A stretch of 64,000 bases of DNA from Methanobacteriota archaeon (lineage in GTDB: Archaea > Thermoplasmatota > Poseidoniia > Poseidoniales > Poseidoniaceae): positions 1,302 through 65,301 of the forward strand of contig PBTH01000009.1 of assembly GCA_002726495.1 (NCBI GenBank). Direction: 5' to 3'. This document shows, piece by piece, positions 3,001-31,838 of the stretch (position 1 is its first letter; every line of letters begins with the position of its first letter). A model generated the notes under the pieces. The model worked only from the letters and a program-made list of their open reading frames with translations. It did no database searches and was not told the DNA's origin. A program made the translations under genes and the position numbers.

Positions 3001-3242
3001 CGCAAGCATCTGTTGGAATTTTGGTATTGTTCGTCCTCATGGGCGCACTTATTTTGAGAGGACGTGGTAAGAATGCGAGGTCAGAAGAACGTCGTCGAGC
3101 GGCAGCTGAAGAATTAATGGGCAATCGGGGAGTGGAAATAGTTCCCACCCCGCGATTGATTTCAGAACGTCAAAACCGCTCAGCACCACCCGTTCAAAGA
3201 GCGCGCAGTCGGTCAATGTTTGAAGAATACCGACGAAAGTGA
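1..3242 (+). CDS. Thrombospondin type-3 (Ca-binding DxDxDGxxD) repeat surface protein, with the 5' end off-window and a C-terminal TM anchor
   Basis: Frame 3 is open from base 3 (ADAFPSESTQWADGDYDGYGDN...), so the listed ORF 252..3242 only marks the first in-frame GTG. It has at least 14 units of D.DGDGYSDPDSGW...QW.D.DGDG.GDN...D.CP...G.S..DR.GC. A non-repeat domain, a hydrophobic anchor (ASVGILVLFVLMGALIL) and a basic tail follow. Confidence 0.8.
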   Translation, partial: ADAFPSESTQWADGDYDGYGDNSAGTNPDGCPSAAGNSTADRFGCTDSDGDGYSNPDSGWTTSNGADSCTSTSGTSDQDRNGCVDTDGDGYSDPDSGWTVSNGADAFASDSSQWSDTDGDGFGDNSPPATNGDNCPNDVGTSSQDRNGCADTDGDGYSDPDSLWTVADGADSFVSDASQWADSDGDGYGDNSTGTNPDACPSVAGTSTNTGSLGCPDADGDGYANIDDPFPAEATQWADSDNDGFGDEITGFQGDNCPSTAGSSTRDRFGCPDTDGDGSSDADSGWTIANGADLDPNDSTQWVDTDGDGYGDNPTGTNGDGCPNDVGNSTHDRFGCTDSDGDGYSDPDAGWTIADGADAYASDGTRWGDADNDGYDDTIDDDCPNIAGTSVEDRKGCPDQDGDGYSDPDSSWGAADGADAFMAEPSQWNDTDGDGYGDNIGGSLPDHCPNEFGTSWQNATYGCIDFDQDGWADIQDSHPNEQTQWADVDGDGYGDNPGGIFADACVNTAGNSTLGNRYGCLDNDGDGWDNSLDALPDLATQWLDQDNDGYGDNASGLQPDACPGEAGTSTIDRYGCIDSDSDGVSNLTDAFPNEPTQWSDIDNDGFGDNPSGVQADACPNVTGTSLIDRIGCLDSDSDGVSDPTPAFDNTSAWNVSDGADALPLEVTQSIDTDGDGYGENASGLNPDACPTTAGTSTIDRYGCVDGDGDGASDANDLFLSDATQWYDGDGDGYGDNPDGNNADDCNSTVGTSTIDRFGCVDTDSDGISDENDVWPNDETQWYDTDGDGYGNEASGTNGDACPMENGTSTKAGKLGCLDTDGDGWADVDDWFPLQRSQYFDGDNDGWGDNATLGAYKPDHWPNDAQRNSAEGSMTCTPTKISIDLAAQTYIDFSCTVSTTMTTSFAARVEWQGTNDVIADSTVQYLTFTPDTGNSQIVTFTGNVQDIGTHQILLSVREPGAENPMDTVTVKITTVDSNIPDTVATDENAASLSKLMENPLAQASVGILVLFVLMGALILRGRGKNARSEERRRAAAEELMGNRGVEIVPTPRLISERQNRSAPPVQRARSRSMFEEYRRK
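3..2600 (+). repeat. Tandem coding repeats (TSP3-like units of about 63-70 aa, roughly 190-210 nt)
   Basis: The CP...G.S...R.GC.D.DGDG motif recurs at least 14 times. The long shadow ORFs in the other frames and strand here come from this periodic composition. Confidence 0.8.
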
Positions 3243-3480: not shown

Positions 3481-4134
3481 ATGAATCTGTTTTTCCTTTG
3501 TCTGCTAACTCTCTGGCTCTACCTCCCCGGTTTCTTGGCTAACACCTTCGCGATGATGTGGGGGAAATGGCTTCCGAAAACAGGTTATGGACCTTGGCCA
3601 ATTGATGGAGGGAGAGAGTGGAAGGATGGAAATCGTATACTCGGAGATGGAAAGACATGGAACGGACTTATTGGAGGCTCAATGACATCGGGGCTTCTTT
3701 GCATGCTCATGGTCGCCATTGTTGATGATGGTGGAATGGCGACGGTGTTTGATGACGGTTCAACCGTATTTGCGTCGCCGCTAACCGGTTCGGCTGGTGC
3801 ATGGTTTGCGATTGGAGGCATGTACGTTACTGCGTTCATACTCGGTACATTCCTTGGCTTTGCTTGTTTGTTCGGTGACAGTTGCGGTTCCTTTGTAAAG
3901 AGACGACGAGGACTCAAAAGGGAGGGTGATGTTTCGTCCAAAGCACCCTTGCTCGACACGCTTCCTTTCGCCATCATGGTGTTTGTTTTCGGTCAACTCT
4001 TTCTTGGAACCTCTGCTCTCGCAGCACCAGAACTCCGTATCCCAATGCTCGTCTTAATCCTCATCACTCCTTTGTTGCACCGAAGTTTCAATTTGATTGG
4101 ATACAAAATCGGATGGAAAGATGTACCGTATTGA
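3481..4134 (+). CDS. carS: CDP-archaeol synthase (CarS, DUF46 family)
   Basis: Multi-TM protein with PIDGGREWKDGNRILGDGKTWNGLIGG and GDSCGSFVKRRRGLKREG...PLLDTLPF, which match the CarS signature as I recall it. Confidence 0.8.
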   Translation: MNLFFLCLLTLWLYLPGFLANTFAMMWGKWLPKTGYGPWPIDGGREWKDGNRILGDGKTWNGLIGGSMTSGLLCMLMVAIVDDGGMATVFDDGSTVFASPLTGSAGAWFAIGGMYVTAFILGTFLGFACLFGDSCGSFVKRRRGLKREGDVSSKAPLLDTLPFAIMVFVFGQLFLGTSALAAPELRIPMLVLILITPLLHRSFNLIGYKIGWKDVPY

Positions 4135-5833
4135 TGGCCAACGGCGCCTAAGGTACGAAACGAATCTTGATGAACAACAAACCCGACAATGGCTCATGGA
4201 AGAAGAGATGATGACGCCAAGTAAGCATTGGCGGTCATCTCCATTTTGGCGACCAATGCTCTTCTTCACGGGGTTTTTAGTGGCATTCAGTGAGGCGATT
4301 GTACGGCTCATTCAAGGAACAGGAGTGATCGATGCCATTTGGCCCCATGCCGTTCGTTCACTCGATTGGACAGTATGGTTGCGCACCTCTACTGAACAGA
4401 CCTTGACGTTGTTCATACTGATTAGCATCGGAGCCTTTTTCCTCAACAAATGGAAGGTCTCATCTCCCAATCAGAATGCGATTGATGAAGGACTTATGAT
4501 CGCCACCGGCGTTGTTAGTGGATTGATAGCAATACATTTCGTAATGGACATCTTTTACTTGAAGGGAGCATTTCTCATGCTGCCGATGCTCTACGCTTGG
4601 TTGCTCTTGTGGCTGCTGCTTATGGTTGGAGGCATGCCACGACTGCGAACCTCTGCCCTGGAAGGAACCACGCCAGCCAGAGTGATTCATTTGATAGGCG
4701 TATTTGTCGCAGCTTGGATGCTCATGCCAGGCGTCCCTGCCCTCGTGGGATTTGCACCGTCTCCACCCGATGCTCCAGCAATTGGGTATGGCTCAAATCC
4801 AGGTCCTTACGAGACCATAAGATTCTCAGAACCCTATGATATGCCAGTAGATGTTGCAGCAATTCAGGGTGATCGAGAGGATGATGTTGTGTTCTCCGTA
4901 CATGTAACACTTCCACTTCTACCCGATGAATCCCCCATACAAACCATCCCCTTGGGCATCTTATTGCACGGTTTTGGATACCCAGACCTTGATGCATACA
5001 CCTACTGGATTGACCATCTTTCAGCAAAAGGGATGGCTGTAGCATTGGTGCAGTATCCCTCGGATTTACGTCCTGCTGGGTACGAATCCTTTGAGGCGGT
5101 TGATGTTAACGGGACATCGGATTTTCTCCAACATGCATACCGTGACACTGCGATACGCGTTGCGATCAATCACCTTGAAACCATGATCATTGGCGAGAAC
5201 AGGTCTCAAGAAATGGAAGACAATCTTGGCAACAGAACGGTAGATCCAACCTCGCTCTGGGTTGGAGGTCATAGTTTAGGTGGGGCCTACACCTTCATCA
5301 CTTTGGATGAAGTGCTCCCCAAAGGCTGGGGCTCTCATGCTCTTGTTGTCGCGTTGGAATCTCCTGCGAGTCGCCCAATGGGGGACTTCATGGAACCAGA
5401 TTTGAGCAATTTACCCCTGAACACCATGGTTCAAGTTGCTGTTACAGAAGATGACATGAGTGTTGGAAGTTGTCCCGGTGTATTTCATCAGCAGATGTTT
5501 AACGCTCTACCAAGCGAACGAAATCAGTTGATAGAAGTGCATTCCGACCAATATGGATTCCCGCGACTTATTGCGAGCCACTACCTCCAAACCAACCCTG
5601 CTCATGACCGCTTATCGGATTGGGGCTTTTACCGTCGTATCGACGCTCAGGCTGATTTCCTCGTTGCGCACGGGAGAAACGACTCGTTTACCGCTGACTG
5701 GGCCTATCAATACATGATCGAAAAAGAAACCTTAACGCAAATGGGGCAATGGTCGGATGGAACTCCAGTTCTCCCTCTCTCTGTTTACCATGATGCGCTC
5801 AATACCGAAGATCGTTTTTCTGCCTGCACATGA
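4097..5833 (+). CDS. Membrane-anchored alpha/beta hydrolase (lipase, chlorophyllase or PAF-acetylhydrolase-like)
   Basis: The N-terminal ~200 aa hold several hydrophobic helices. Next comes LGILLHGFGYPDLDAYTYWIDHLSAKGMAVALVQYP and the nucleophile elbow VGGHSLGGAY. The start is uncertain, with in-frame ATGs at 4097, 4121 and 4196, and 4097 overlaps the end of carS. Confidence 0.6.
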   Translation: MDTKSDGKMYRIDGQRRLRYETNLDEQQTRQWLMEEEMMTPSKHWRSSPFWRPMLFFTGFLVAFSEAIVRLIQGTGVIDAIWPHAVRSLDWTVWLRTSTEQTLTLFILISIGAFFLNKWKVSSPNQNAIDEGLMIATGVVSGLIAIHFVMDIFYLKGAFLMLPMLYAWLLLWLLLMVGGMPRLRTSALEGTTPARVIHLIGVFVAAWMLMPGVPALVGFAPSPPDAPAIGYGSNPGPYETIRFSEPYDMPVDVAAIQGDREDDVVFSVHVTLPLLPDESPIQTIPLGILLHGFGYPDLDAYTYWIDHLSAKGMAVALVQYPSDLRPAGYESFEAVDVNGTSDFLQHAYRDTAIRVAINHLETMIIGENRSQEMEDNLGNRTVDPTSLWVGGHSLGGAYTFITLDEVLPKGWGSHALVVALESPASRPMGDFMEPDLSNLPLNTMVQVAVTEDDMSVGSCPGVFHQQMFNALPSERNQLIEVHSDQYGFPRLIASHYLQTNPAHDRLSDWGFYRRIDAQADFLVAHGRNDSFTADWAYQYMIEKETLTQMGQWSDGTPVLPLSVYHDALNTEDRFSACT

Positions 5834-6298: not shown

Positions 6299-7081
6299 TC
6301 ACACATTTCCCCTGTTTGTCTTACACCCTACGCCCCAATCAGGGTCGCTCTCCATTGCCGAACGAGTCGCTTCCAATAATCGGTCTTCCGCAGTAACCAA
6401 ATGCTCGGATTTCAAGCGGATTGCTAGGCTCAATTGGAAGTCACTTTCTGTCCAACTTACCAATTGAATTTTTGAATTTTCAATTGAAATATTTTGATTA
6501 TTTTGTCCAATTGAAACTTTAATTTTGCGAGGATTAAGATGCATTCCTTTTCGCATGGCTTTTTGCACTGCTTCCTTTGCGGTCCACAAGAACATGGAGG
6601 CGTTTGGTTGCTGACGGAGTTGCTCAAGTTCATCTCCAGTGGACATCATATCAAAGGCATTTGCTGCAAGGGAACGAGAGCTCGGCTCAGCATCGATACC
6701 CACATCCATACTGGAATCGGCAAGAGCAACGAACACATGACCTCCGCTGTGTGAGATTGAAATTGAGGGAAGCGGTAAATTCAGCCACATGCCCTGCAAG
6801 TAGGCGACTCGTGGAGCACGTTCTTGATTACGAAGGATATGGAGGACACTCAAATCTTCAATGCCCCACGATTTGAGGGCGTGCCCCAACAACCATCGTC
6901 CACTCATGTGCTCATCGTTTCGCTTCTGCGTCGCAAAAGTAGCCACTTCATCTGCATTCGCGAGTGGTACTTCACGAAGTTCAAAGGTGTGAACTGGCAT
7001 GCTATAGGCACGAACTCCCAGTGATTCAAAAGTCGGGTGGTTTAATTCCACAATCTGGCGTTCCATGCGCTCACCGATCAT
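6299..7081 (-). CDS. Sfp-type 4'-phosphopantetheinyl transferase (PfaE-like)
   Basis: It carries VGIDAEP and WTAKEAVQKA, matching the PPTase G(I/V)D and (F/W)xxKE(S/A)xxK motifs. Its ATG overlaps the megasynthase stop as ATGA (7078-7081). An alternative ATG lies at 7066. Confidence 0.75.
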   Translation of the reverse strand: MIGERMERQIVELNHPTFESLGVRAYSMPVHTFELREVPLANADEVATFATQKRNDEHMSGRWLLGHALKSWGIEDLSVLHILRNQERAPRVAYLQGMWLNLPLPSISISHSGGHVFVALADSSMDVGIDAEPSSRSLAANAFDMMSTGDELEQLRQQPNASMFLWTAKEAVQKAMRKGMHLNPRKIKVSIGQNNQNISIENSKIQLVSWTESDFQLSLAIRLKSEHLVTAEDRLLEATRSAMESDPDWGVGCKTNRGNV

Positions 7082-10000
7082 CGAACAAATTCAACACTGT
7101 GTTCGTCCGCCACGGGTGCCATCGCCTTCAACCGCAGCCCCTTCATGGCGAGCACTGGAGCATCATCATCGCCGACGATAACAACATCGTGAACGGTGAC
7201 TCCTTCATCATCCGATGAGGTTTGTATGCTACGAAGACGTAGACTCTCATCGCTTTCAGGAACTCGGAGCATTGTTGACCATTGAATCCCAACAGGCAGG
7301 CTACTGAAGCCCTTTGACTCCATAGCCACCAAGCCTGCGTTTTGGAAGCCTGCTTCAATCAGCATCGGCAAGGCTTCGAGCAACACCTGTTCCCCATTGC
7401 TCTCAATAGAAAATTGGTCGGTCTGCGGAAGTTGATGACGCATCAAAGCACGCCCATCAATACCTGGATGTTCATCGTCTCCAACACCTCTTAGCACACC
7501 TCCATGCGATTGGAATCGTGGGCCATGGAAGTAGCGCTGATAGATGAAATCGGGACGTTGAATCAATTCGCCTGATGGGGGTATGCCAATCTCTGGAAGC
7601 AGATTGACCTCGCGATCAAGGAATGGACAAAGGTCGTCGCATTTCTCTACCAAACGAACGAGAGCTGTGTGATGCTCACGCTCACCAAAGACTTCCCCTT
7701 TGGAATTTGCAAGGTCTGAAACAAGCGTGCATCGCACCCAGGTCAAATCACCATCTTTTCGCTCAATCTGAGACACCACACGTACAATCATTGGACCTTT
7801 GAGAAGTTTCACCGGTAGCCCGAAGGTAACCTCTTCATATCCCGCCAAGCATGTTGAGGGGCGCAAAAGGAGTGAATTTTGTGCAAACATTTCCAACGCC
7901 ATGACCCCAGGATGGTAAGGTACTCCGTCGATGGCGTGGTCTGTAAGGAACGGGTGGTCGTCAACTGAAAGGGTGCTTTGCGTGGTCATTGAGGCTCCAT
8001 CCTCAAGGTCGAGGACTTTGTCAATGAATGGGAATCGTGAGGGATCTGCAATTGTTGCAGCCATACTGGGAGGTAATTTCAACGGAGCCTCACGGAATGA
8101 ATCGAAACGATCCATCATACCGAGGGAACCGCATCCAAGTACCCTGCGCTTACCGCCTCGCAATGCCTCATCTACGAAGATATGGACGCCGTCCTCAACA
8201 GAAAGCGTCTCAATTCCTGCTGCCTCAAATACGGCTTCGATTGAACCACGCGTGGCCATGCCAACATCACGCCATCCGGTCCAACCAATGGCAACCGCAC
8301 GGCATGAAGAACTGGCTGTGAGACGAGCCATCTCCGCATCGAGAACTGAATTGGCTGCAGCATAATCCGTCTGACCGCCATTTCCAAACCGTCCCGCTAC
8401 GCTGGTAAAGCAAGAAGCAAACAGTGGATAGTCTCGTCCTGAAGCACGCACTGCACCTAATAGGGCCCTCCATCCATCAATTTTAACACGGACGACGTTG
8501 TCAAATATTTCATGCGATTTATCGCCAACGAGCTTTGAATCTTCAAGACCTGCTCCGTGAACGATACCGGTAATCTCTCTTTCGAGATTCTGGCCAAGGG
8601 ATTCAAGCGCTTCGTAGTCAGTTACATTGACAGAACAATACTCTGCAGTATTGCCGGTCTTGACGATGGTGTCCATCGTGATGAAAACATCCCTGCTACG
8701 AGTGTATTTCTGCCAGGCTTTGTTCCATTCGACCATGGTGACCTTTCCATCATCTGCTGCATCAACCAATCGCTGCCTTAGGGCATTCTTCTCTTCGGCA
8801 AGTTGAGATTCGTCCCATTCGATCCAATGTTCTGTTTCTTCAAGAAGTGCTGAACGACCGAGAAGAACAAAGTGGGCTCCTGCATTTTGGCTTGAAGTTG
8901 CCACTCCGATAACTGAAGCAGCAGTAACTCCGGAGCCGCCACCAGAAACGAGCCAGGTGTCTTCACTGGTAAGCGGCTGTGTTTCTTCAACAAGGTCTTC
9001 TGCAAAGGCTACGAGTGTCCAACGGCGGCCGTCTCGGTCCAAGCCAATTTCTACTTCTCCTCCAAGCGCAAACACATCATGTTCAATCCGTTTTGCGGCG
9101 TCTACCTCCTCAAAGAGAAGTTCTGGATGTAAATCAATGGCTCGGCAGCGCAAGTCTGGGCGTTCAAAGGCATAGGACTTGGTAACGCCTGATGCTGAGC
9201 ATTGGATTGAATTGAAACGTTCACCGATGTTTCCATGCCTCCCATCCATAGCGGTGACGGAGGCGATAATCGCTGGTTTTTCATTTGAAATATGATCATT
9301 CAATTCTTTCAAGAGAGCAAACCACCCATGACCGGCCAGAGCAATCTGTGATGATGGGACGGTGTCTTCCTCCCACTGTGCAGAAGCGATTTTCATCGGA
9401 GCCATGTGGACAAGAGCGCCAATCGTCGTGGCCCGTAGTTGTTCACTGATCCAAGCCACATGCTCAGGTTGTTCTGGGTCAGCCCGATAGACGGTTCGAC
9501 CGCCTTCGTTAAGGACAGATGGTTCTCGGATACTGCTCTCAAAACCAACACGAACAGCATGCAAGCCTCGCGCATCCATGCGCTTGCAAAATGCCTCTGC
9601 GATCCCCCACCCATCGTCGGTAACAACAACGGCCCCATTAATGGTAAGTGGCTCATCAGTTCCTTGACAATCTTCGACTTCAACTTGCCACCTACGAGTT
9701 CCCGAAGGAGTGAACGTATCGGTGGCCGATTCTACTGTGGATTCAACTGGAAGGGGTTCGGATGACGCAGGTGCCGCTGTGGCGCCTCCGGTCATTTTCA
9801 CGATATAGGCGGTGAAATGGTTGAGCGTTGGGTGGTCGGAAAGGACAAAGTCCTCATCCACTGGAAGTGAAAATTTCTCACGTATGTCCCCCATGATTTC
9901 GGCTTGCTTGACGGTATCAATTCCAAGTTCACCTTCCAAATCCTGGTCCATCTCGATGAAATCCGCTGGATAACCCGTATGTTCAACCACGACCTCAATG

Positions 10001-13000
10001 AGGACCGATTCAATATCTGGATTTGAGCCAGAAGATGGAGGCAATTCCACTGGAGGTGTCACGGCAGCTGGTGCTGGAGTTGGGGCACTTTCCTTGGGTG
10101 CTGAAGAGGGTACTGAAGGTGGGGCGCCACCCTGCATGGTTTGGATGTACCCCATCATGTGATTGAGTGTTGGATAATCAGACAAAACAAAATCTTCATC
10201 GATGGGCAGATCAAAACGCTCTCGGATATCAGCCATAATTTCAGCTTGCTTGACCGTGTCAATTCCAAGTTCACCTTCCAAATCTTGGTCCATTTCAATG
10301 AAATCTGCTGGGTACTTTGTGTGTTCAACTACGACTTCAACAACAATGTTTTGCATTGAAACATCATCAACAACCACTGGCGATGGAGCATCTTTTTGTT
10401 CGGTCTTTGAAACAGTCACTGGAGCCTCAAGTTGAGGTGTGGCCGGAGGTTGAGGTGCGGGTGGTGAACGTTCTGAACCGGTCATCTGTTGAATGTAGGA
10501 AATCATATGATTCAGAGTCGGATAATCCGAGAGGATGAAATCCTCGTCGACGGGAAGTGAGAATTTCTCACGGATATCAGCCATAATTTCAGCTTGTTTT
10601 ACCGTATCAATGCCCAATTCACCTTCCAAGTCCTGGTCAAGTTCAATGAAATCCGCTGGATAACCTGTATGAGTCACGACAACATCAATGACCGTTTGAA
10701 CCGTAGACTCGTCGCTTACTGCGAGAGGTGCTGACGGCATAACCGGTGCAGGTGATGGCTTAGGAGCAGCAACAGCAGGAGGAGTTTCAATGCGGGGCGG
10801 GGCGGTTTCTGGTTGGACCGATGCTTTGCCTTCCCACTCTTTTGTCGGCTCCCAATGTTCGCCTTGAACCCCGCCGTGAAGGTTGTCATCTCCATCGACA
10901 TAAGCCACGAGTTTATTTTGGAGGATTCGCATCACAACATCATCCGTTCCTGCGAGTTTTCTTGCCCAAGCAAGCAAGATTGCTCCATTGATTCGTTCAC
11001 CTTCAATGGGCCAACGACGAACCAAAGAGAGCGCAATTTGGGAGCCAAAACCAGCCGCAAATCTCAATCCATACTGAAGTCCCGGATAATCTCCACCAGT
11101 TGATAGATTCAAATCGCCCAATTCCGGGTCGTTTTCTTTGTGATTAGCAATTGGGGGAATACGCCCCGTCAGCATGCCGTAGAACATACTTGCATCTTCA
11201 ATCCCAACCGCCATTGGATGCCCAGTGAATCCTTTGGTATTCGCAATAACGAGGCTGTTGGTCGATTCTCCGAAAGTATCTCGAAGGGCTTTGACCTCAG
11301 ATTGTGCTGAACCCCCACGTGCAGGAGTGTATGTTTCATGTGAAAAGAATGCAGTTTTTGGAGCGAACTCATGCCGGTCAAGACCCCAACGTTGTTCCAT
11401 AGAACTGATGAAATCGTTCACGATTTCGCCAACGTGTTCAACATCAAGTCTCGTCCCGTGATATGCTGAATTTGCCGTGGTCGAACCAAGCAATTCGGCA
11501 ATGGGTTGTACGCCTCGTTGTTTTGCTTCGGAATGGCGCTCAACAACGAATGCAGCAGCCCCCATTCCCAGGATGAGGCCGTTTCTTCTGCGATCAAATG
11601 GTAGGGCTGTTTCCTCTACGATATTGTTGGTCGCAGCAGCCCCAGAGGCTGCAAACCCGCCAGCAATCCACTCCCAAAGGTCGTCACCCGTCACATCATC
11701 TCCACTGATGATGACAACACGGTCTACTCGGTCATTTTCCAACCAGTCTTCAGCAACTCCAAAGGCCGCTGTAGCGGATGCGCAAGCAAGGTTAATCGTC
11801 GTATTCGGGCCCCTGATGCCGGTGTATTGAGCGAATTGTGAATGGCCCATGTTGAGGGCTTGGAACAAGTAACGCCGGTCAAACCGACCCTCGCCATCGT
11901 CCCCGTTAGTTTTGGCATGCTTTGAGGCCATCTGCAATCCAGGGAAACAGGATGAAAACACAATACCCGTGCGTTCCCGTTGAATTTGAGGAACTTGCCA
12001 ATTCCGGATGAGTCGGAGTCCACCTTTGCCAACCTGTTCAACAGGAGTGAGTGGAATTCCAGCGTCACGGAGTGCAAGTAAACCTGCAGCGACAGACAAT
12101 TGTGTACTGATGTCCCAGGCGAGCACGACCTTGGGGTCAATACCAAATTCTTCTGAAAGGTCAAATGCACCTTTGAGGCCTGCGAGTTGGGGGATGTCTC
12201 CAAAGACCGTTGCTTGGTCCATGTTGACCGAACCGTCTCTTCCTTTGATGAGGCGGACAATGTTCTTGTCGAGAAGTCGTTGCTTGTATTCATCTGAAAC
12301 TTCTGAAATACACGTTTCTCCGCGCACTAATTTTTCAAAGGTATCCTCTGAAAAGACACGGTCCATACCAGGAAGTCCAAGGGAAATACCGGTGACGACA
12401 AAGGGGTCCGTATCTCTTGATGAACCCGAATGTGATTTGACTGCAGGCGCCGTTTGAACACGGTGCGATGCCTCTGATCTTTGAGGTGATGTCACGGTCG
12501 AGCGAGGTGCCCATGAAGATGGGGGCATCTTGACCCATCGTGCTAAATCGCCTGCGGTCAAGGATTGGCTGGGGTCATATTCGCCGTCAGTTTCAGCTTC
12601 ACTCGCCAGTGTTGAAATGACGTTTTGTATGGAAGATTCATTCAATCCAAGCCCTTCACGAAGCATAACATGCCCGTGGCAAAATGAAGCAGGGTAGTTG
12701 CTAAACGCTCCAATCCGGTCACCAACATAAGCCCGAATCGCCCGTTGTAGTGCGAATTCGTTGTCGACTACCGGGTGGTGAACTGGGGAAGAAGAAGGTA
12801 CGACAACAGCCCCTGCTCCACTCGGAAGTGGGCGTGCCCGAACGCGGAGCGATTCAACTTCTGAGGTTGACGGCCCTGTAGCCATTTGCACAGGGTGATG
12901 TGCCTCGATTGGGCCCGCTCTGAAGGCTTCACTTAGAATGTTTGAATTCGTATCTGGCCATTGAGGCGCTCGTCCTGCGAGGGCAAGGGCTCCAAGAGCG

Positions 13001-15870
13001 GTAAGGAATGTTGCAATACCTCCCTGTTTTGGATGGTTGGACATGATGGATAGGTGAGGGCGGTCTTCCAAAATTTGCATTGAAAACATGGTCAGGGCTC
13101 GTTTGGGGCCAACTTCAACGAAGACTCTGGCGCCAGCATCGTACATGGTTTCAATTTGTTTGGTCCATTCAACTGAAGAGGCCATTTGAGGAGCCAGTTG
13201 TTTCAAGACCTCCTGTTTAGAATCTCCACCCTTCATTGGATAAAATCTTCCATCAACGTTGGCTGTAATCGGAATACTGGGCCAACGAATCTCAAGGGAC
13301 TCAAGGAAACGTCGCAACGGTTCATTCGCAGGTGCGACAATACGGGAGTGGAATGCGTGAGAAGTAGCGAGTTCAACGCTGTTGAATCCTTTGGATTCAA
13401 AAGCGGCCATTGCTGAGCGAACCGGTGCAGTTTCACCGGCAATGACGGTCATTTTTGGTGAGTTTTTATTGGCTGCAATCACGTATCCTTCTGTTGCATC
13501 TAAGATCGCTTCCACTTCATCATATGGAGCACTTACACTTGCCATCAATCCTTTATCGTCGATTTCAACCGAGCCCATTTCCGTACCGCGAGCTGCTGCT
13601 GCACGCAACGCTCCATCCATGTCAAGTATACCCGATGACATCAATGCAGCATATTCACCAAGTGAGTGGCCTGCAACCATGTCAGGATGGTGGCCAAAGG
13701 CGTTCAAGGTCCGCTCAATAGCTAAATCGGCAGTGAGCATTGCTGGTTGTGTGTATTCTGTTTGTTTGAGTTTGTGCTCGGCTTCTTTGAGTTCATCCGA
13801 AGACAGCGAATCCCTCAATACAAAACCGGAAAGCGTCTCGCCATCAAGGACATCGACCATGGTGACATCTGCTTGCTTCCAAACAGATGCTGCGGGCGAG
13901 AATCGCTTGACAAGGTCGTTGGTCATTCCAACGTATTGGCTTCCTTGACCAGGATACATATGGGCTACTTTGGCCTCTTTTGGCAAGGCGGAGTCGGTAC
14001 TGATGAGAATGCCTTGCGATTGAAGAAAGCCCCATTTTTCAGGGTCGTCCATTGCCTTGAGTGCAAGCGTGACTCGCTTGTCAAATTCTGCCCAAGATGT
14101 TGCGACGAGAGCCATTCTTGCCTGATGGGATGAATCGTATTCCCCACTTGCTCCTTGGAGGGCCTCAGAAAGTCTCCTCCCTCGTGGGTCGGAATCAAAT
14201 CTTGGCTCTCCGAATTTCAACGCACCGAGCGAAGAAGACAACTCCTTCACCGATGAAGCGGATAAGAGCAGAAGGCCTCCTTCAATCGATTTGAGTTGCT
14301 CGTGAGTCATTGTTGGCTGTGCTGATGAATCAAATATTGAGGGGGCTTCTGCGGTTGAGGCCGAAGATTGTGCGTATGCGTTCCAGCGGCCTTCCCAATC
14401 CAAAGCAAGTGGGCGATGAACATCAGGCTCATATCCTTCCAAAGCAATGTGGAAATTCGTTCCTCCAAAGCCAAAAGCAGAGACACCGGCTCGCCGAGGG
14501 TTATCGCTTGGCCGAGGCCATTCTCGGGCTTCTGTGGGCACAAAAAATGGAATATTTGACCAATCAACAGTTGGATTTGGCGTCTCAAAATTGGCGCTCG
14601 GAGGAATGGTGCGGTGATGGAGAGCCATGACCGTTTTCATGATTCCAGCAATACCTGCAGCCGCCTTGAGGTGACCAATTTGAGATTTGATGGAGCCAAC
14701 GGCAACCTTGCCTGTACCCTCTATGCCAGTCCACAATCGAGACAGTGTTGAGAGTTCAGTCGCATCACCGACCTTGGTAGATGTTCCGTGAGCCTCAACC
14801 AATTCAACTGAAGAGGCTGGATATCCGGCTTGGCTGTACGCTCGGGCAATCGCCTGAATTTGCCCCCTTTGACTTGGAGCAGTAATTCCTTTTCCACGTC
14901 CATCGGACGAACCGCCAATACCCCGAATAACACTGTATATTTCATCTCCAGAATGGATGGCATCGTTCAATCGCTTGAGAACAAGCACACCGGCCCCCTC
15001 ACCCATTACAAATCCGTTTGCACGGGCATCAAACGGCGAAGAGTGCGATGGGGAAAGCGCTCCAATCGCTGAGAATTTCGCGAAGGTTGCAGGATCCATT
15101 GTCCGATCTGTAGCTCCCGCCAACATTACGTCAACTTGACGAGTTTGAAGAAGTCGGCACGCATCTAAAACAGCGGCCATGGAAGATGCACATGCAGCAT
15201 CCATTGCATGATTCGGCCCCTGCAAGTCCAAGAGATTGGCCACTCTTCCTGAAACGACGTTCGCAAGTTCACCCGGCATCGTATCCTCATCAACACGTGG
15301 CGTGCCCTCGTTGATCTCGTTCACAAAGGCATCAGCATTTGTCGACGGCATGCCGTGAGTCATGGCGGTTTGTTTGGTGTGTTCGGACCAAACACGAATG
15401 TTTGACAGATTCCTATTTTCTCCACCAAGGGCATTGGCAAAGACAACACCCGTTTTGGTGCGGTCGATATCATTGCTTTCACCATCGTATCCGGCATGTT
15501 CTATTGCATCGGCTGAAACGGTAACCGCCCACAACTGGCACGGGTCAATTTGTGGAAGTGTGCCGGGAGGTTGCCGCCAACGACGCCAATCAAACTCATC
15601 ACCCTTCACGAGAGCGCCAATTTTTGCATAAGTGAATCCCTCCGTATGCTCTCCAGGGCCGCCTTCTTTCCAAAAATGGCTCATTGGCCCAGGCCATCTG
15701 CCCTCAGGCAAAGGAGCAATGCTGACTTTCTTATCGATGATGTTCTGCCAAAAGTCTTCGATGCTTGGGGCATCTGGCATAAGAGCGCCAATCCCTACGA
15801 CCGCAATCGGTTCAAAGGGCCCTTGTTCAAGACCTTCGCAAGGTTTGCCGTCATCGGTAGTAATGGTCAT
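7078..15870 (-). CDS. Pfa/PKS-like type I megasynthase with domain order KS-AT-KS-ACPx3-KR-DH
   Basis: One uninterrupted ORF. The domain motifs are listed in the sub-features below. The ORF track starts at GTG 15879. I prefer ATG 15870, which sits 5 nt after a GGTGA Shine-Dalgarno-like element. Confidence 0.9.
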   Translation of the reverse strand: MTITTDDGKPCEGLEQGPFEPIAVVGIGALMPDAPSIEDFWQNIIDKKVSIAPLPEGRWPGPMSHFWKEGGPGEHTEGFTYAKIGALVKGDEFDWRRWRQPPGTLPQIDPCQLWAVTVSADAIEHAGYDGESNDIDRTKTGVVFANALGGENRNLSNIRVWSEHTKQTAMTHGMPSTNADAFVNEINEGTPRVDEDTMPGELANVVSGRVANLLDLQGPNHAMDAACASSMAAVLDACRLLQTRQVDVMLAGATDRTMDPATFAKFSAIGALSPSHSSPFDARANGFVMGEGAGVLVLKRLNDAIHSGDEIYSVIRGIGGSSDGRGKGITAPSQRGQIQAIARAYSQAGYPASSVELVEAHGTSTKVGDATELSTLSRLWTGIEGTGKVAVGSIKSQIGHLKAAAGIAGIMKTVMALHHRTIPPSANFETPNPTVDWSNIPFFVPTEAREWPRPSDNPRRAGVSAFGFGGTNFHIALEGYEPDVHRPLALDWEGRWNAYAQSSASTAEAPSIFDSSAQPTMTHEQLKSIEGGLLLLSASSVKELSSSLGALKFGEPRFDSDPRGRRLSEALQGASGEYDSSHQARMALVATSWAEFDKRVTLALKAMDDPEKWGFLQSQGILISTDSALPKEAKVAHMYPGQGSQYVGMTNDLVKRFSPAASVWKQADVTMVDVLDGETLSGFVLRDSLSSDELKEAEHKLKQTEYTQPAMLTADLAIERTLNAFGHHPDMVAGHSLGEYAALMSSGILDMDGALRAAAARGTEMGSVEIDDKGLMASVSAPYDEVEAILDATEGYVIAANKNSPKMTVIAGETAPVRSAMAAFESKGFNSVELATSHAFHSRIVAPANEPLRRFLESLEIRWPSIPITANVDGRFYPMKGGDSKQEVLKQLAPQMASSVEWTKQIETMYDAGARVFVEVGPKRALTMFSMQILEDRPHLSIMSNHPKQGGIATFLTALGALALAGRAPQWPDTNSNILSEAFRAGPIEAHHPVQMATGPSTSEVESLRVRARPLPSGAGAVVVPSSSPVHHPVVDNEFALQRAIRAYVGDRIGAFSNYPASFCHGHVMLREGLGLNESSIQNVISTLASEAETDGEYDPSQSLTAGDLARWVKMPPSSWAPRSTVTSPQRSEASHRVQTAPAVKSHSGSSRDTDPFVVTGISLGLPGMDRVFSEDTFEKLVRGETCISEVSDEYKQRLLDKNIVRLIKGRDGSVNMDQATVFGDIPQLAGLKGAFDLSEEFGIDPKVVLAWDISTQLSVAAGLLALRDAGIPLTPVEQVGKGGLRLIRNWQVPQIQRERTGIVFSSCFPGLQMASKHAKTNGDDGEGRFDRRYLFQALNMGHSQFAQYTGIRGPNTTINLACASATAAFGVAEDWLENDRVDRVVIISGDDVTGDDLWEWIAGGFAASGAAATNNIVEETALPFDRRRNGLILGMGAAAFVVERHSEAKQRGVQPIAELLGSTTANSAYHGTRLDVEHVGEIVNDFISSMEQRWGLDRHEFAPKTAFFSHETYTPARGGSAQSEVKALRDTFGESTNSLVIANTKGFTGHPMAVGIEDASMFYGMLTGRIPPIANHKENDPELGDLNLSTGGDYPGLQYGLRFAAGFGSQIALSLVRRWPIEGERINGAILLAWARKLAGTDDVVMRILQNKLVAYVDGDDNLHGGVQGEHWEPTKEWEGKASVQPETAPPRIETPPAVAAPKPSPAPVMPSAPLAVSDESTVQTVIDVVVTHTGYPADFIELDQDLEGELGIDTVKQAEIMADIREKFSLPVDEDFILSDYPTLNHMISYIQQMTGSERSPPAPQPPATPQLEAPVTVSKTEQKDAPSPVVVDDVSMQNIVVEVVVEHTKYPADFIEMDQDLEGELGIDTVKQAEIMADIRERFDLPIDEDFVLSDYPTLNHMMGYIQTMQGGAPPSVPSSAPKESAPTPAPAAVTPPVELPPSSGSNPDIESVLIEVVVEHTGYPADFIEMDQDLEGELGIDTVKQAEIMGDIREKFSLPVDEDFVLSDHPTLNHFTAYIVKMTGGATAAPASSEPLPVESTVESATDTFTPSGTRRWQVEVEDCQGTDEPLTINGAVVVTDDGWGIAEAFCKRMDARGLHAVRVGFESSIREPSVLNEGGRTVYRADPEQPEHVAWISEQLRATTIGALVHMAPMKIASAQWEEDTVPSSQIALAGHGWFALLKELNDHISNEKPAIIASVTAMDGRHGNIGERFNSIQCSASGVTKSYAFERPDLRCRAIDLHPELLFEEVDAAKRIEHDVFALGGEVEIGLDRDGRRWTLVAFAEDLVEETQPLTSEDTWLVSGGGSGVTAASVIGVATSSQNAGAHFVLLGRSALLEETEHWIEWDESQLAEEKNALRQRLVDAADDGKVTMVEWNKAWQKYTRSRDVFITMDTIVKTGNTAEYCSVNVTDYEALESLGQNLEREITGIVHGAGLEDSKLVGDKSHEIFDNVVRVKIDGWRALLGAVRASGRDYPLFASCFTSVAGRFGNGGQTDYAAANSVLDAEMARLTASSSCRAVAIGWTGWRDVGMATRGSIEAVFEAAGIETLSVEDGVHIFVDEALRGGKRRVLGCGSLGMMDRFDSFREAPLKLPPSMAATIADPSRFPFIDKVLDLEDGASMTTQSTLSVDDHPFLTDHAIDGVPYHPGVMALEMFAQNSLLLRPSTCLAGYEEVTFGLPVKLLKGPMIVRVVSQIERKDGDLTWVRCTLVSDLANSKGEVFGEREHHTALVRLVEKCDDLCPFLDREVNLLPEIGIPPSGELIQRPDFIYQRYFHGPRFQSHGGVLRGVGDDEHPGIDGRALMRHQLPQTDQFSIESNGEQVLLEALPMLIEAGFQNAGLVAMESKGFSSLPVGIQWSTMLRVPESDESLRLRSIQTSSDDEGVTVHDVVIVGDDDAPVLAMKGLRLKAMAPVADEHSVEFVR
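7081..8052 (-). other. PKS-type (PS-DH, double hot-dog) dehydratase domain
   Basis: HPFLTDHAIDGVPYHPG fits the HxxxGxxxxP motif (His codon 7936-7938). The second half contains YFHGPRFQ. Confidence 0.65.
8245..9672 (-). other. Ketoreductase domain (structural plus catalytic subdomains)
   Basis: It has the Rossmann motif TWLVSGGGSGVTA and the SDR catalytic region GNGGQTDYAAAN. Confidence 0.7.
9790..10716 (-). repeat. Three tandem Pfa-type carrier (ACP) domains at 10480-10716, 10132-10368 and 9790-10026, separated by Pro/Ala-rich linkers
   Basis: The block YPADFIE(L/M)DQDLEGELGIDTVKQAEIM.DIRE.F.LP.DEDF.LSD.PTLNH occurs three times, with periods of 348 and 342 nt. The expected Ser position is Thr in every copy (codons ACG at 10603-10605, ACG at 10255-10257, ACC at 9913-9915). 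Confidence 0.75.
11005..12405 (-). other. Ketosynthase domain 2 (internal, Cys-His-His retained, divergent HETYT motif)
   Basis: It carries VVTGISLGLPG, INLACASATAA (Cys codon 11782-11784), FFSHETYTPARGG and GFTGHPMAVG. Confidence 0.7.
13075..13962 (-). other. Acyltransferase domain (malonyl-type)
   Basis: It carries GQGSQYVGM, GHSLGEYAAL and SHAFHS. The HAFH motif is associated with malonyl-CoA specificity. Confidence 0.8.
14440..15810 (-). other. Ketosynthase domain 1 (Cys-His-His intact)
   Basis: It carries IAVVGIGALMPDA, MDAACASS (Cys codon 15190-15192), EAHGTSTKVGD and GHLKAAAG. Confidence 0.85.
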
Positions 15871-15875
15871 TTTAT

Positions 15876-15880
15876 TCACC
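15876..15880 (-). promoter_or_regulatory. Shine-Dalgarno-like GGTGA upstream of the megasynthase ATG
   Basis: The minus strand reads AAGGTGAATAAAATG. The element abuts the fabI stop codon (TAA, 15881-15883), which implies translational coupling. Confidence 0.4.
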
Positions 15881-16672
15881 TTAATTCATGATGCTTTCTG
15901 GCACCATCGTAATTGAGTAACCCGCATCAACATAGATGCATTGGCCAGTCACTCCAGAAGATAGAGGGCTTGAGAGCCATAGTGTAGCACCTGCAACGTC
16001 TTGTTGGCTTACATTGCGGCGCAATGGGGCATTTGCTTCAACGTGGTCAAGAATACGGTCAAATCCGGGAATTCCCCCCGCTGCAATGGTACGAATTGGC
16101 CCTGACGAAATAGCGTTGATCCGATGACCTTCCGGCCCCAAATGGCACGCCAACTCCCTCGTCCAGCATTCAAGCGCAGCTTTCGCCATGGACATAATTC
16201 CATAATTGGGAACGTATCGATTTGCTGCTGCATAGGTCAGTGTCACCGTAGACGAACCTGGATTCAAATAAGGAAGTGCATGCTTAAGGCAGCGTTGAAG
16301 GGAATTGGCGGAAATGGTCATGGCCGTGTTGATATCTTCACCTTCAACGAATAGAATTGGACGGTCAAAACAGGCTCTTGGTGCAAATCCGATAGCATGG
16401 ATAAGGATATCTGCCTTTTTGCCCGGATGGTCTTTTGCGAATGCATCAAAAAATTCCTGAGTCGTTGCATCTTCTGCAACATCCAGTGGATAGAATCCTC
16501 CAATGGATGGAAGTTGGTCTTTTAATTGAAAGATACGACTCATAAATCGCTTCTGGTACCCCAAATAAAGTGTCACTCCAGCAGCGGCAAGTTGTTGACA
16601 AATAGCCCAAGCGATGGAGTCTTCGCTAGCAACACCAAAGACAAACGCTGTTTTCCCTTCTAAACTTAGCAT
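15881..16672 (-). CDS. fabI: Enoyl-[acyl-carrier-protein] reductase, FabI type (SDR)
   Basis: It carries LEGKTAFVFGVASEDSIAWAI and the Y-x6-K motif YGIMSMAKAALE. The start is placed at the internal ATG 16672, because the family N-terminus is M..L.GK. The ORF track extends to 16735. Confidence 0.8.
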   Translation of the reverse strand: MLSLEGKTAFVFGVASEDSIAWAICQQLAAAGVTLYLGYQKRFMSRIFQLKDQLPSIGGFYPLDVAEDATTQEFFDAFAKDHPGKKADILIHAIGFAPRACFDRPILFVEGEDINTAMTISANSLQRCLKHALPYLNPGSSTVTLTYAAANRYVPNYGIMSMAKAALECWTRELACHLGPEGHRINAISSGPIRTIAAGGIPGFDRILDHVEANAPLRRNVSQQDVAGATLWLSSPLSSGVTGQCIYVDAGYSITMVPESIMN

Positions 16673-16792
16673 GAAAACACTCCGTGACGAACAGGTGTAG
16701 TGCGCTACACCAAGCCTTTGAGTGTTGCCTTTCAAAAAGGGGCTTAGAGCGACGGTTTTGCACCTTCTTGATTTAGCGGAGGAAGCGTAAAC

Positions 16793-18859: not shown

Positions 18860-19402
18860 TCAAATTTGATCAACGAAATAGCCATGCTCAGTGAACAGGT
18901 TTTTCCAATAAACTGCAGCCATAGCAACCATGTTTGGATGGCGTGCATCCGTCACAATACACTTCCCATTAGGCCAAATTTGAACGGTTAGACTATGGCG
19001 AGTATCAGAAAGAATGGTGCATCCGAGTCTTTGGTCATACTCAGTAGTGCCCGATGGGAACGAACCTGCAATGGCCTGCAGGTTGATGGATTGTTCATAT
19101 TTGAATGAGGTTACGACTGGGCCGAGTTCAGCAACGAGGCCTGCATCGTCCATTCCCAAGCGAAGAAGCAATTCTTTCGCAGCGGCTCGGGCCGCCTCAA
19201 CGCGATGGGTCCCGTGAACGACGATTCTTCCTTCTTCGTCAATTACAAGCGTGGCACGAGGGCGGTCCAAGACTTTGATGACCACTCCACTGTTACGTTG
19301 ACCACCAACGATATCCACCACTTTTTGTTGGTCGAGAGGAACTGGACAAACAAAACGGACGAGTTGATTTTCAACACGAACATCTACTGAACCGGTGGCC
19401 AT
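18860..19402 (-). CDS. Divergent TBP-fold (two-repeat) protein
   Basis: Both halves align by eye to archaeal TBP. VRVENQLVRFVCPVPLDQQKVV...PRATLVIDEEGRIVVHGTHRVEAARAAAKELLLRLG aligns with the first repeat. VVTSFKYEQSINLQAIAG...SLTVQIWPNGKCIVTDARHPNMVAMAAVYWKNLFTEHG aligns with the second. Confidence 0.5.
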   Translation of the reverse strand: MATGSVDVRVENQLVRFVCPVPLDQQKVVDIVGGQRNSGVVIKVLDRPRATLVIDEEGRIVVHGTHRVEAARAAAKELLLRLGMDDAGLVAELGPVVTSFKYEQSINLQAIAGSFPSGTTEYDQRLGCTILSDTRHSLTVQIWPNGKCIVTDARHPNMVAMAAVYWKNLFTEHGYFVDQI

Positions 19403-26071: not shown

Positions 26072-26173
26072 GGTGTCACCTATGCACCTTCGGATGATTC
26101 CTCTACCTAAAACCTCGTCGCTCTCTTGTCTTTGTAACTTAAGAAAGAACGATTTTTGTCCTCCCAGTTGAAG

Positions 26174-31653: not shown

Positions 31654-31838
31654 GTGCGAACGGCGGCCGAAGTATCCTATGAGCAAAGCGGTCAAAACAA
31701 CTGGTGTTTGACGAAAATACAGGAATTCGGCATATCCCAAACCTCCATGAGGCCATTTTCAACGATCACATCAAGAAATAGAGATTGAGGTTGCACTACG
31801 GGAAGGAATATGTAGGGGGGGGATTATGGATAACTGCA

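What the first reader, a model, noticed from the sequence alone, without database searches (positions are those of the whole stretch)
9790..10716. All three tandem carrier domains have Thr at the phosphopantetheine-attachment position
Seen in sequence: each of the three ACP-like repeats reads DLEGELGIDTVKQAEIM.
- As I recall it, the Pfa-type ACP signature is LGIDSIKRVEIL, so this is a clear homologue with Ser replaced by Thr.
- The Thr codons are ACG (10603-10605), ACG (10255-10257) and ACC (9913-9915).
- The surrounding DNA of the three copies differs at many synonymous positions, so the Thr looks conserved and is not a single sequencing error or a very recent duplication.

Established knowledge: 4'-phosphopantetheine is attached to the conserved Ser of the (D/H)S(L/I) motif. 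I know of no natural Thr-linked carrier.

Inference, with three alternatives:
- The co-encoded PPTase may modify Thr.
- These domains may be non-canonical and unmodified.
- The true carrier may lie elsewhere.
Basis: partly seen in the sequence, partly recalled or inferred. Interest (0 to 1): 0.75.

Follow-up and report, generated by a model that had tools for sequence, protein, structure and literature searches.

The report
Carrier domains with threonine acceptor site
A giant fatty-acid/polyketide-type enzyme of a marine archaeon carries threonine where every studied acyl carrier has the serine that holds its cofactor. The same threonine is conserved in hundreds of related enzymes, each with its own activating enzyme encoded nearby, which suggests an undescribed threonine-linked version of a universal protein modification.

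Summary
The three tandem ACP domains of the 2933-aa megasynthase (window 7078..15879, minus strand) read LGIDTVKQAEIM. Their Thr codons are ACG, ACG and ACC at the stated coordinates. The repeats are only 71-74% identical in DNA.

The Thr aligns exactly on the phosphopantetheine Ser of solved ACPs. It is the first residue of helix II in a confident model.

This is not a local oddity:
- The enzyme belongs to the uncharacterised 'Type R' PfaA-like family (KS-AT-KS-ACPn-KR-DH plus a PPTase gene).
- Thr is near-invariant in this family. It accounts for 288 of 297 motif hits in a DNA scan that also accepted Ser, and all four Thr codons are used.
- The family occurs in Marine Group II archaea and at least eight bacterial phyla.

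A few strict, syntenic orthologues carry Ser instead. An Sfp-type PPTase with intact catalytic motifs lies next to or is fused with the synthase in 59 of 61 loci. No other carrier domain exists in the window.

Best reading (0.65): Thr is the real attachment site, served by the co-encoded PPTase. This is unproven biochemically, and the same S-to-T change is a null allele in E. coli ACP.

I found no report of the Thr trait.

The parts
10480..10695 (-). ACP domain 1 (aa 1729-1800). The acceptor-position Thr1759 has codon ACG at 10603-10605.
   Evidence: Pfam PF00550. Coordinates and codon. The Thr aligns on the Ppant Ser of solved ACPs. It is the first residue of helix II in the model.
10132..10347 (-). 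ACP domain 2 (aa 1845-1916). Thr1875 has codon ACG at 10255-10257.
9790..10005 (-). ACP domain 3 (aa 1959-2030). Thr1989 has codon ACC at 9913-9915.
7078..15879 (-). Whole megasynthase gene (2933 aa), with domain order KS1-AT-(ACP-like linker)-KS2-ACPx3-KR-DH. This is the 'Type R' PfaA-like architecture.
   Evidence: ORF, translation, Pfam. TIGR02813 PfaA scores 871 bits, below its cutoff of 1010. Architecture census. Type R description in PMC3098273.
14392..15813 (-). KS1 (aa 23-496), with DAACASS, EAHGTST and KSQIGH motifs present.
   Evidence: Pfam PF00109/PF02801/PF16197. The motifs were read by eye in the translation.
12970..13959 (-). Acyltransferase (aa 641-970), with GHSLGE and HAFHS motifs (malonyl-type).
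   Evidence: Pfam PF00698; TIGR00128 fabD 190 bits; motifs read by eye.
12535..12762 (-). Degenerate ACP-like linker segment (aa about 1040-1115), with pattern GYPAxFCxGxVxLxxGLG[LM][S/T/N/D]x. It has no conserved acceptor residue (Asn-Glu in this window).
   Evidence: Alignment of 35 orthologous segments.
10990..12417 (-). KS2 (aa about 1155-1630), called 'CLF' in the literature. Here it keeps Cys, His and His at the FabF catalytic positions.
   Evidence: phmmer alignment to FabF structures 2gqd and 4ddo.
8260..8982 (-). Ketoreductase (aa about 2300-2540), with GGGSGV and YAAAN motifs.
   Evidence: Pfam PF08659; motifs read by eye.
7108..8031 (-). PKS-type dehydratase (aa 2617-2924), with HxxxGxxxxP present.
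   Evidence: Pfam PF21089/PF14765; motif read by eye.
6299..7081 (-). Sfp-type 4'-phosphopantetheinyl transferase (260 aa). It overlaps the synthase stop codon by 4 nt. The motifs ISHSG, GIDAE and WTAKEAVQK are intact.
   Evidence: Pfam PF01648. Alignment to Sfp 1qr0/4mrt. Conserved downstream position in related loci. Rough dN/dS of 0.09-0.3, with dS saturated.
15881..16735 (-). FabI-like enoyl-ACP reductase, directly upstream in the same operon. It is the likely trans-acting ER.
   Evidence: Pfam PF13561 at 231.8 bits. The 12 best NCBIfam hits are all FabI, but below the equivalog cutoffs. It is conserved upstream in the MGII and Elusimicrobia loci.

Best explanation
The three Thr residues are the real 4'-phosphopantetheine attachment sites of a working, iterative FAS/PKS-like megasynthase.

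Proposed mechanism:
1. The operon is fabI-like ER, then KS1-AT-KS2-ACP3-KR-DH, then an Sfp-type PPTase.
2. The co-encoded PPTase transfers phosphopantetheine from CoA to the Thr hydroxyl at the N-terminus of helix II of each ACP, giving an O-phosphopantetheinyl-threonine.
3. The AT then loads malonyl units, and the KS domains condense.
4. KR, DH and the trans-acting FabI-like ER process the chain iteratively into a long-chain 'secondary lipid'.

Thr in place of Ser is a trait of the whole Type R PfaA-like family, which Marine Group II archaea share with many bacterial phyla.

Shown here:
- positional homology of the Thr with the Ppant Ser;
- family-wide conservation of Thr, with occasional Ser in orthologues;
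- intact catalytic motifs in every domain and in the PPTase;
- conserved PPTase linkage;
- absence of any other carrier domain in the window.

Inferred, not shown: that Thr is actually modified, which enzyme modifies it, and what the product is.
For: Position:
- The Thr sits exactly on the Ppant Ser in alignments to four solved ACPs. It is the first residue of helix II in a model with pLDDT 95 and a canonical ACP fold.

Only hydroxyl residues are tolerated at the site:
- The 622 ACP domains in the 150 best cluster representatives comprise 399 Thr, 219 Ser and 4 degenerate.
- Proteins are all-Thr (105) or all-Ser (44), with one exception.

Selection acts on the amino acid:
- A metagenome DNA scan accepted ACN, TCN, AGN and TGN codons in the G[IV]D-x-VKQAE context. 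It gave 288 Thr, 7 Ser and 2 Arg.
- All four Thr codons were used (ACC 126, ACG 113, ACT 29, ACA 20).

Ser and Thr interchange in strict orthologues:
- L081, L124 and L174 are 45-54% identical to the window protein over its full length and carry LGVDSVKQAE.
- L174 has the same gene order as the window: 277-aa ORF, TBP, TatD, FabI, synthase.
- L081 also has a PPTase gene directly downstream.

PPTase linkage:
- Of 61 Thr-type loci with enough sequence, 49 have a PPTase domain within 5 kb downstream on the same strand, and in 3 of these it is fused to the synthase.
- Seven more have one about 8 kb downstream, and 3 have one elsewhere in the locus.
- The window PPTase keeps the Sfp motifs ISHSG, GIDAE and WxxKExxxK. 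It appears to be under purifying selection.

No alternative carrier:
- There is no other ACP in the protein or the window.
- The ACP-like linker lacks a conserved acceptor.

The synthase looks functional:
- Catalytic motifs of KS1, AT, KS2, KR and DH are intact.

Thr goes with the architecture:
- Thr tracks KS-AT-KS-ACPn-KR-DH, and Ser tracks classic PfaA KS-AT-ACPn-KR.
Against: - I found no experimental precedent for a Thr-linked phosphopantetheine. Seven of the ten full-text searches addressed this and found none.
- In E. coli the same substitution, ACP S36T, cannot be modified and is non-functional. It is used as a null control (PMC3340395).
- No sequence signature separating Thr-linked PPTases from Sfp or from the one Ser-linked orthologue was seen. 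There is therefore no positive evidence that the PPTase is adapted to Thr.
- All the evidence is comparative. Nothing shows the modification itself.
Confidence: 0.65

Rival explanations
1. The Thr domains are never phosphopantetheinylated. They would be pseudo-carriers that act as structural spacers or docking modules, and the enzyme would work on CoA-bound or otherwise free substrates.
For: S36T abolishes modification of E. coli ACP. No precedent for Thr-Ppant was found. Archaea are generally thought to make fatty acids without ACP (my recollection of Lombard et al. 2012, not checked here).
Against: A structural domain would not need a hydroxyl at this one position, yet only Thr or Ser occurs there in 618 of 622 domains, and orthologues carry Ser. 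A PPTase gene with intact motifs is kept next to the synthase in 59 of 61 loci. In an archaeal operon with no other carrier domain in the window, that gene would have no obvious substrate. The tandem multiplicity (2-6 copies) matches functional PUFA-synthase ACPs.
Confidence: 0.12
2. Thr is modified, but deliberately poorly or selectively. On this view the S-to-T change is an insulation device. It makes the domains invisible to housekeeping AcpS-type PPTases, or to ACP hydrolases, so that only the dedicated PPTase controls activation. Alternatively, the phosphodiester is made more stable.
For: The PPTase is dedicated, adjacent or fused. Proteins are all-Thr or all-Ser. AcpS cannot use S36T ACP.
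Against: This refines the best explanation rather than replacing it. The archaeal hosts probably have no competing PPTase, yet they keep Thr. No PPTase signature was found.
Confidence: 0.12
3. The functional carrier is a separate Ser-type ACP encoded elsewhere in the genome, acting in trans.
For: Only 64 kb of the genome is visible. The ER is already trans-acting (FabI).
Against: No ACP-like ORF exists in the window, even at E=10 with E. coli AcpP as the query. No ACP gene turned up in the related loci examined. The internal ACP-like linker has no conserved acceptor. This reading also does not explain why the internal domains keep a hydroxyl residue and a PPTase.
Confidence: 0.06
4. The Thr codons are a sequencing or assembly artefact, or the gene is a decaying pseudogene.
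For: None.
Against: The gene is an intact 8.8-kb ORF. The three independent copies use different codons. The same residue occurs in hundreds of independent assemblies.
Confidence: 0.01

Closest known systems
Tandem ACP domains of PfaA in bacterial PUFA synthases (signature LGIDSIKRVEIL)
   Same: Closest sequence relatives outside the Thr group. Both are tandem repeats separated by Pro/Ala-rich linkers, placed before KR-DH. Both have Asp at -1, a branched hydrophobic residue at +1 and Lys at +2. Both work with a Sfp-type (PfaE-like) PPTase.
   Different: The acceptor is Thr, not Ser. The context is VKQAE rather than IKRVE. The host protein has a second KS between AT and the ACPs. It scores below the TIGR02813 cutoff. 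There are no PfaB, PfaC or PfaD partners, and a FabI-like ER is present instead.
'Type R' secondary lipid synthase gene cluster (Shulse & Allen 2011, PMC3098273)
   Same: The architecture is the same: KS-MAT-'CLF'-ACP(3-6)-KR followed by a PPTase gene. The same phyla are involved (Acidobacteria, Elusimicrobia, Chloroflexi). ACC genes are often nearby.
   Different: That paper does not mention the acceptor residue (0 occurrences of 'serine' or 'threonine') and lists no archaea. In this window KS2 keeps Cys-His-His, so 'CLF' is doubtful. The product of the family is unknown.
E. coli AcpP S36T mutant
   Same: The same Ser-to-Thr change at the same structural position.
   Different: In E. coli it is a loss-of-function allele that AcpS cannot modify. 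Here Thr is the conserved wild-type state of a large family that has its own Sfp-type PPTase.
Enediyne PKSE (KS-AT-ACP-KR-DH-PPTase) - recalled from memory, not tested here
   Same: It is an iterative PfaA-like synthase that carries its own PPTase. In three bacterial Thr-type loci the PPTase is fused to the C-terminus.
   Different: As I recall, PKSE has one Ser-type ACP, no second KS and a different product logic. No sequence comparison was made here.
Sfp-type (group II) PPTases
   Same: PF01648 match, two-lobed length of about 230-280 aa, and conserved (S/T)xSHS, GxDxE and WxxKE(A/S)xxK motifs.
   Different: The predicted substrate hydroxyl is on Thr. Similarity to Sfp itself is weak (E about 4e-3).

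Membership tests
Acyl carrier / PP-binding domain (PF00550) | Profile match above the curated cutoff | tested here: met
   84.8 bits against a cutoff of 20.8, in three stretches.
Acyl carrier / PP-binding domain (PF00550) | ACP-type helical bundle fold with the acceptor at the N-terminus of helix II | tested here: met
   AF2 model with pLDDT 95.4; DSSP helices at residues 2-14, 35-49 and 65-76, so helix II starts at residue 35, the Thr. TM 0.82-0.87 to solved ACPs.
Acyl carrier / PP-binding domain (PF00550) | Conserved Ser in the D-S-(L/I/V) motif as the phosphopantetheine acceptor | tested here: not met
   Thr is at that position in all three domains.
Acyl carrier / PP-binding domain (PF00550) | Actual 4'-phosphopantetheinylation | not testable with these tools
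   Requires mass spectrometry of the expressed protein.
PfaA of omega-3 PUFA synthase (TIGR02813) | Score at or above the curated cutoff | tested here: not met
   871 bits against a cutoff of 1010.1; the best stretch covers only KS-AT.
PfaA of omega-3 PUFA synthase (TIGR02813) | Domain order KS-MAT-ACPn-KR-DH, with PfaB, PfaC and PfaD partners | tested here: not met
   An extra KS lies between AT and the ACPs. The neighbours are a FabI-like ER and a PPTase, with no PfaB, PfaC or PfaD.
Type R secondary lipid synthase cluster (Shulse & Allen 2011) | A single pfaA homologue with KS-MAT-KS/CLF-ACP(3-6)-KR | tested here: met
   definition taken.
Type R secondary lipid synthase cluster (Shulse & Allen 2011) | PPTase gene downstream of the synthase | tested here: met
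   Window 6299..7081 overlaps the synthase stop codon. The same arrangement is seen in 49 of 61 related loci.
Type R secondary lipid synthase cluster (Shulse & Allen 2011) | Shared ancestry with the named exemplars (Roseiflexus, Solibacter, Koribacter, Elusimicrobium) | not tested
   MAGs of the same phyla were recovered, but the exemplar proteins themselves were not fetched or aligned.
Sfp-type PPTase (PF01648) | Profile match and catalytic motifs (His of xSHS, Asp/Glu of GxDxE, Glu/Lys of WxxKExxxK) | tested here: met
   42 bits against a cutoff of 25. Motifs are aligned to Sfp.
Sfp-type PPTase (PF01648) | Transfer of Ppant to a carrier-protein Ser | not testable with these tools
   The only candidate acceptors in the window are Thr residues.

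The most novel reading that the evidence does not exclude
A large natural class of carrier domains uses O-(4'-phosphopantetheinyl)-threonine instead of -serine. These are the ACPs of Type R PfaA-like megasynthases, found in at least eight bacterial phyla and across the abundant Marine Group II archaea. Dedicated Sfp-type PPTases that accept a Thr hydroxyl would install the cofactor. In Poseidoniales this would also be an ACP-dependent fatty-acid or polyketide synthase operating in an archaeon.
Probability: 0.6. Interest if true: 0.85.

Novelty: new variant of a known kind. Interest (0 to 1): 0.75.

Why it matters
Attachment of phosphopantetheine to a conserved Ser is treated as universal for FAS, PKS and NRPS carriers. 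S-to-T is routinely used as a dead control.

A large, ancient family with an invariant Thr would have three consequences:
- It would extend the chemistry of PPTases.
- It would offer a naturally orthogonal carrier/PPTase pair for engineering and protein labelling.
- It would flag a blind spot in annotation rules that require Ser, such as PROSITE-type patterns and 'inactive ACP' calls in genome mining.

It also draws attention to a conserved FabI-megasynthase-PPTase operon in Marine Group II archaea. These organisms are reported to lack the archaeal G1P backbone enzyme and to encode G3P dehydrogenase (PMC6461757). The operon is therefore relevant to the 'lipid divide' question.

The claim can be tested directly with one co-expression experiment and mass spectrometry.

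Tried and rejected
Literature:
- Ten full-text searches were run. Searches looked for Thr-linked phosphopantetheine or the GIDTVKQ motif. Searches looked for PKS or ACP in Marine Group II. One search looked for the S36T mutant.
- None reported a natural Thr acceptor or this operon.
- Two key MGII genome papers do not mention polyketide, ketoacyl or acyl carrier.
- The Beld et al. PPTase review could not be retrieved.

Searches with limitations:
- The word-indexed protein search returned only fragments of 135 aa or less, all with GIDTVKQ. I treated it as biased. I replaced it with the exhaustive representative search and with a codon-degenerate DNA scan that accepts Ser as well as Thr.

Negative or weak results:
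- I looked for a PPTase sequence signature that tracks Thr versus Ser in a 64-sequence alignment including Sfp and the one Ser-linked orthologue. None was consistent. With a single Ser-linked PPTase, the test has no power.
- dN/dS of the PPTase is only indicative, because dS is saturated (above 1.7, undefined for three pairs).

Alternatives considered and rejected:
- The ACP-like segment between AT and KS2 could have been the 'real' carrier. I rejected this because its acceptor-equivalent positions vary (S/T/N/D followed by E/S/P/T/D and others) and read Asn-Glu in the window.
- A stand-alone ACP elsewhere in the window was looked for and none was found.

Full report
**1. The observation**

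The region lies inside a 2933-aa minus-strand ORF, window 7078..15879.
- Three repeats read ...GYPADFIE(L/M)DQDLEGELGIDTVKQAEIM...
- The Thr residues are 1759, 1875 and 1989. Their codons are ACG (10603-10605), ACG (10255-10257) and ACC (9913-9915), exactly as reported.
- The 72-codon cores are 70.8-73.6% identical in DNA. They differ at 27-31 synonymous and 13-15 non-synonymous codons, so they are old, independently evolving copies.
- Pfam PF00550 matches all three (84.8 bits against a cutoff of 20.8).

The Thr occupies the acceptor position.
- phmmer against PDB sequences aligns it to the Ser of the D-S-x motif in both PigH ACPs, spinach ACP and the S. coelicolor FAS ACP.
- An AlphaFold2 model built on 25 family members has mean pLDDT 95.4 and starts helix II at the Thr.
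- The model superposes on solved ACPs at TM 0.82-0.87.

**2. What the gene and its surroundings are**

Pfam and NCBIfam give the domain order KS, AT, second KS, three ACPs, KR, PKS-type DH.
- Motifs read by eye in the translation: DAACASS, EAHGTST and KSQIGH in KS1; GHSLGE and HAFHS in AT; GGGSGV and YAAAN in KR; HxxxGxxxxP in DH.
- KS2 aligns to FabF with Cys, His and His in place.

The operon has two further genes.
- Directly upstream is a FabI-like enoyl reductase at 15881..16735. Its 12 best NCBIfam hits are all FabI, although below the equivalog cutoffs.
- Directly downstream, overlapping the stop codon by 4 nt, is an Sfp-type PPTase at 6299..7081 (PF01648). Its ISHSG, GIDAE and WTAKEAVQK segments align to the catalytic His, Asp/Glu and Glu/Lys motifs of Sfp. 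The Sfp residue roles are from established knowledge.

The window is archaeal.
- It encodes a TATA-binding protein (18860..19402) and a CDP-archaeol synthase (3481..4134).
- The nearest relatives of the ACPs and of the whole protein are from Candidatus Poseidoniales / 'Euryarchaeota archaeon' MAGs, that is, Marine Group II.

**3. The Thr is a family trait**

*Exhaustive protein search.* A phmmer search of 1.84 billion cluster representatives gave 4423 hits.
- The 150 best contain 622 ACP domains: 399 with G[IV]DT[VI], 219 with G[IV]DS[IV] and 4 degenerate.
- Proteins are all-Thr (105) or all-Ser (44), with one exception.
- Thr goes with the architecture KS-AT-KS-ACPn-KR-DH. Ser goes with classic PfaA, KS-AT-ACPn-KR.
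- The consensus contexts are LGIDTVKQAE(x)F and LGIDSIKRVEIL.

It recovered the Thr motif in:
- Poseidoniaceae and Thalassarchaeaceae;
- Myxococcota and Bradymonadia;
- Actinomycetota, including the cultured Amycolatopsis sp. NPDC021455;
- Chloroflexota, Elusimicrobiota, Spirochaetota, Gemmatimonadales and Acidobacteriaceae.

*Unbiased count.* To avoid bias I scanned metagenome contigs with GGNRTNGAYWSNGTNAARCARGCNGA. This pattern accepts Thr, Ser, Arg, Cys and Trp codons at the site.
- 120 stretches gave 297 motifs: 288 Thr, 7 Ser and 2 Arg.
- The Thr codons were ACC 126, ACG 113, ACT 29 and ACA 20.
- Use of all four codons shows that selection acts on the amino acid.

**4. The family is known, the Thr is not**

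Shulse & Allen (2011, PMC3098273) defined a 'Type R' secondary-lipid cluster.
- It is one pfaA homologue, KS-MAT-CLF-ACP(3-6)-KR, followed by a PPTase gene.
- They found it in Koribacter, Solibacter, Elusimicrobium and Roseiflexus, sometimes with ACC genes, and its product is unknown.
- This matches the window and the related loci.
- Their text never mentions serine or threonine and lists no archaea.

Other literature found nothing.
- Two reference MGII genome papers do not mention polyketide, ketoacyl or acyl carrier.
- Searches for Thr-linked phosphopantetheine found nothing.

**5. Is the Thr the attachment site?**

For:
- (a) Only hydroxyl residues occupy the site.
- (b) Strict orthologues carry Ser. 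L081 (=P0199), L124 and L174 have GC 0.35 and are 45-54% identical to the window protein over its whole length. Each has two ACPs reading LGVDSVKQAE.
- (c) L174 has the window's own gene order: 277-aa ORF, TBP, TatD, FabI, synthase. L081 has a PPTase gene downstream. Ser and Thr are therefore interchangeable in one orthologous enzyme, as expected if the hydroxyl is what matters.
- (d) Of 61 Thr-type loci with at least 4.5 kb beyond the last ACP, 49 have a PPTase domain within 5 kb downstream on the same strand. Three of these are fused to the synthase. Seven more have one about 8 kb downstream, 3 have one elsewhere in the locus, and 2 have none.
- (e) The PPTases keep their catalytic motifs. 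The MGII PPTases show rough dN/dS of 0.09-0.3, with dS saturated.
- (f) No other carrier exists in the protein or the window. An ACP-like segment between AT and KS2 (about 12535..12762) has no conserved acceptor.

Against:
- E. coli ACP S36T cannot be modified and is non-functional (PMC3340395).
- No precedent for Thr-linked phosphopantetheine was found.
- No Thr-specific PPTase signature was detected, although only one Ser-linked comparator was available.

**6. Mechanism proposed**

- The co-encoded Sfp-type PPTase phosphopantetheinylates the three Thr hydroxyls.
- The AT loads malonyl.
- KS1 and KS2 condense.
- KR, DH and the trans-acting FabI-like ER reduce.
- Iteration yields a long-chain acyl product.
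- The product is released by an unidentified hydrolase. Candidates in the window are a 4HBT thioesterase (26156..26677) and an alpha/beta hydrolase (4097..5833).
- A biotin carboxylase (30313..31740) could supply malonyl-CoA.

The domains, motifs and linkage are shown. Every chemical step is inferred.

**7. Verdict**

- The best explanation is a natural Thr-acceptor carrier/PPTase system (confidence 0.65).
- Its rivals are unmodified pseudo-carriers, an insulation variant of the same idea, a trans-acting ACP and an artefact.
- It is a new variant of a known kind: an ACP/PPTase system inside an already catalogued but uncharacterised cluster type.
- Interest is high because the Ser rule is regarded as universal and the test is simple.

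Noticed in passing
window 6299..16735 (minus strand); loci L002-L038, L042, L058: The FabI-like ER / KS-AT-KS-ACP-KR-DH megasynthase / PPTase operon is conserved across Marine Group II archaea, in both Poseidoniaceae and Thalassarchaeaceae MAGs. It would be an ACP-dependent FAS/PKS in an archaeal order. The two reference MGII genome papers consulted do not mention it.
   Followed up: partly
window 12535..12762 (minus strand, aa about 1040-1115): An ACP-like segment lies between AT and KS2, with pattern GYPAxFCxGxVxLxxGLG[LM][S/T/N/D]x. It is conserved in 35 orthologues but has no conserved acceptor residue, so it is probably a degenerate carrier or docking domain.
   Followed up: partly
window 10990..12417 (minus strand): The second KS, labelled 'CLF' for Type R clusters in the literature, keeps Cys, His and His at the FabF catalytic positions in this protein. 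It may be an active second ketosynthase.
   Followed up: partly
L081 39-5699, L124 370-8667 (minus), L174 5697-11445: A low-GC (0.35) lineage carries syntenic orthologues of the window's synthase. These have two ACPs and Ser (LGVDSVKQAE) instead of Thr. In L081 the PPTase has Thr where Sfp and the window have the His of the xSHS motif (SISTSG).
   Followed up: partly
L049 6217-17833, L050 0-5664, L057 1-5002: In three bacterial loci (Bradymonadia and an unclassified bacterium) the PPTase domain lies inside the same long ORF as the synthase. This C-terminal fusion is reminiscent of enediyne PKSE. L049 also has an extra Thr-type ACP about 3.5 kb after the main array.
   Followed up: partly
L051 3075-5345 and 11623-18867; L001 2299-3933 and 16101-19899: In the Amycolatopsis and Chloroflexi loci the synthase is flanked by an acyl-CoA dehydrogenase-like gene and by acetyl-CoA carboxylase genes. 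MGII and Elusimicrobia loci (L047, L069) have a FabI-like gene instead. The enoyl-reduction partner seems to differ between lineages.
   Followed up: partly
L111 and L146: Two metagenome stretches carry GIDRVKQAE, with Arg (AGA/AGG) at the acceptor position. They were not examined further and could be dead domains or errors.
   Followed up: no
window 252..3242 (+) and 20219..26071 (-): Two very large ORFs (996 and 1950 aa) have no Pfam match at E<=0.001.
   Followed up: no
window 3481..4134 (+), 26156..26677 (+), 30313..31740 (-): Lipid-related neighbours of the operon: CDP-archaeol synthase, a 4HBT/YciA-like acyl-CoA thioesterase (also present next to the Ser-type orthologue in L174), and an acetyl-CoA-carboxylase-type biotin carboxylase.
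   Followed up: no
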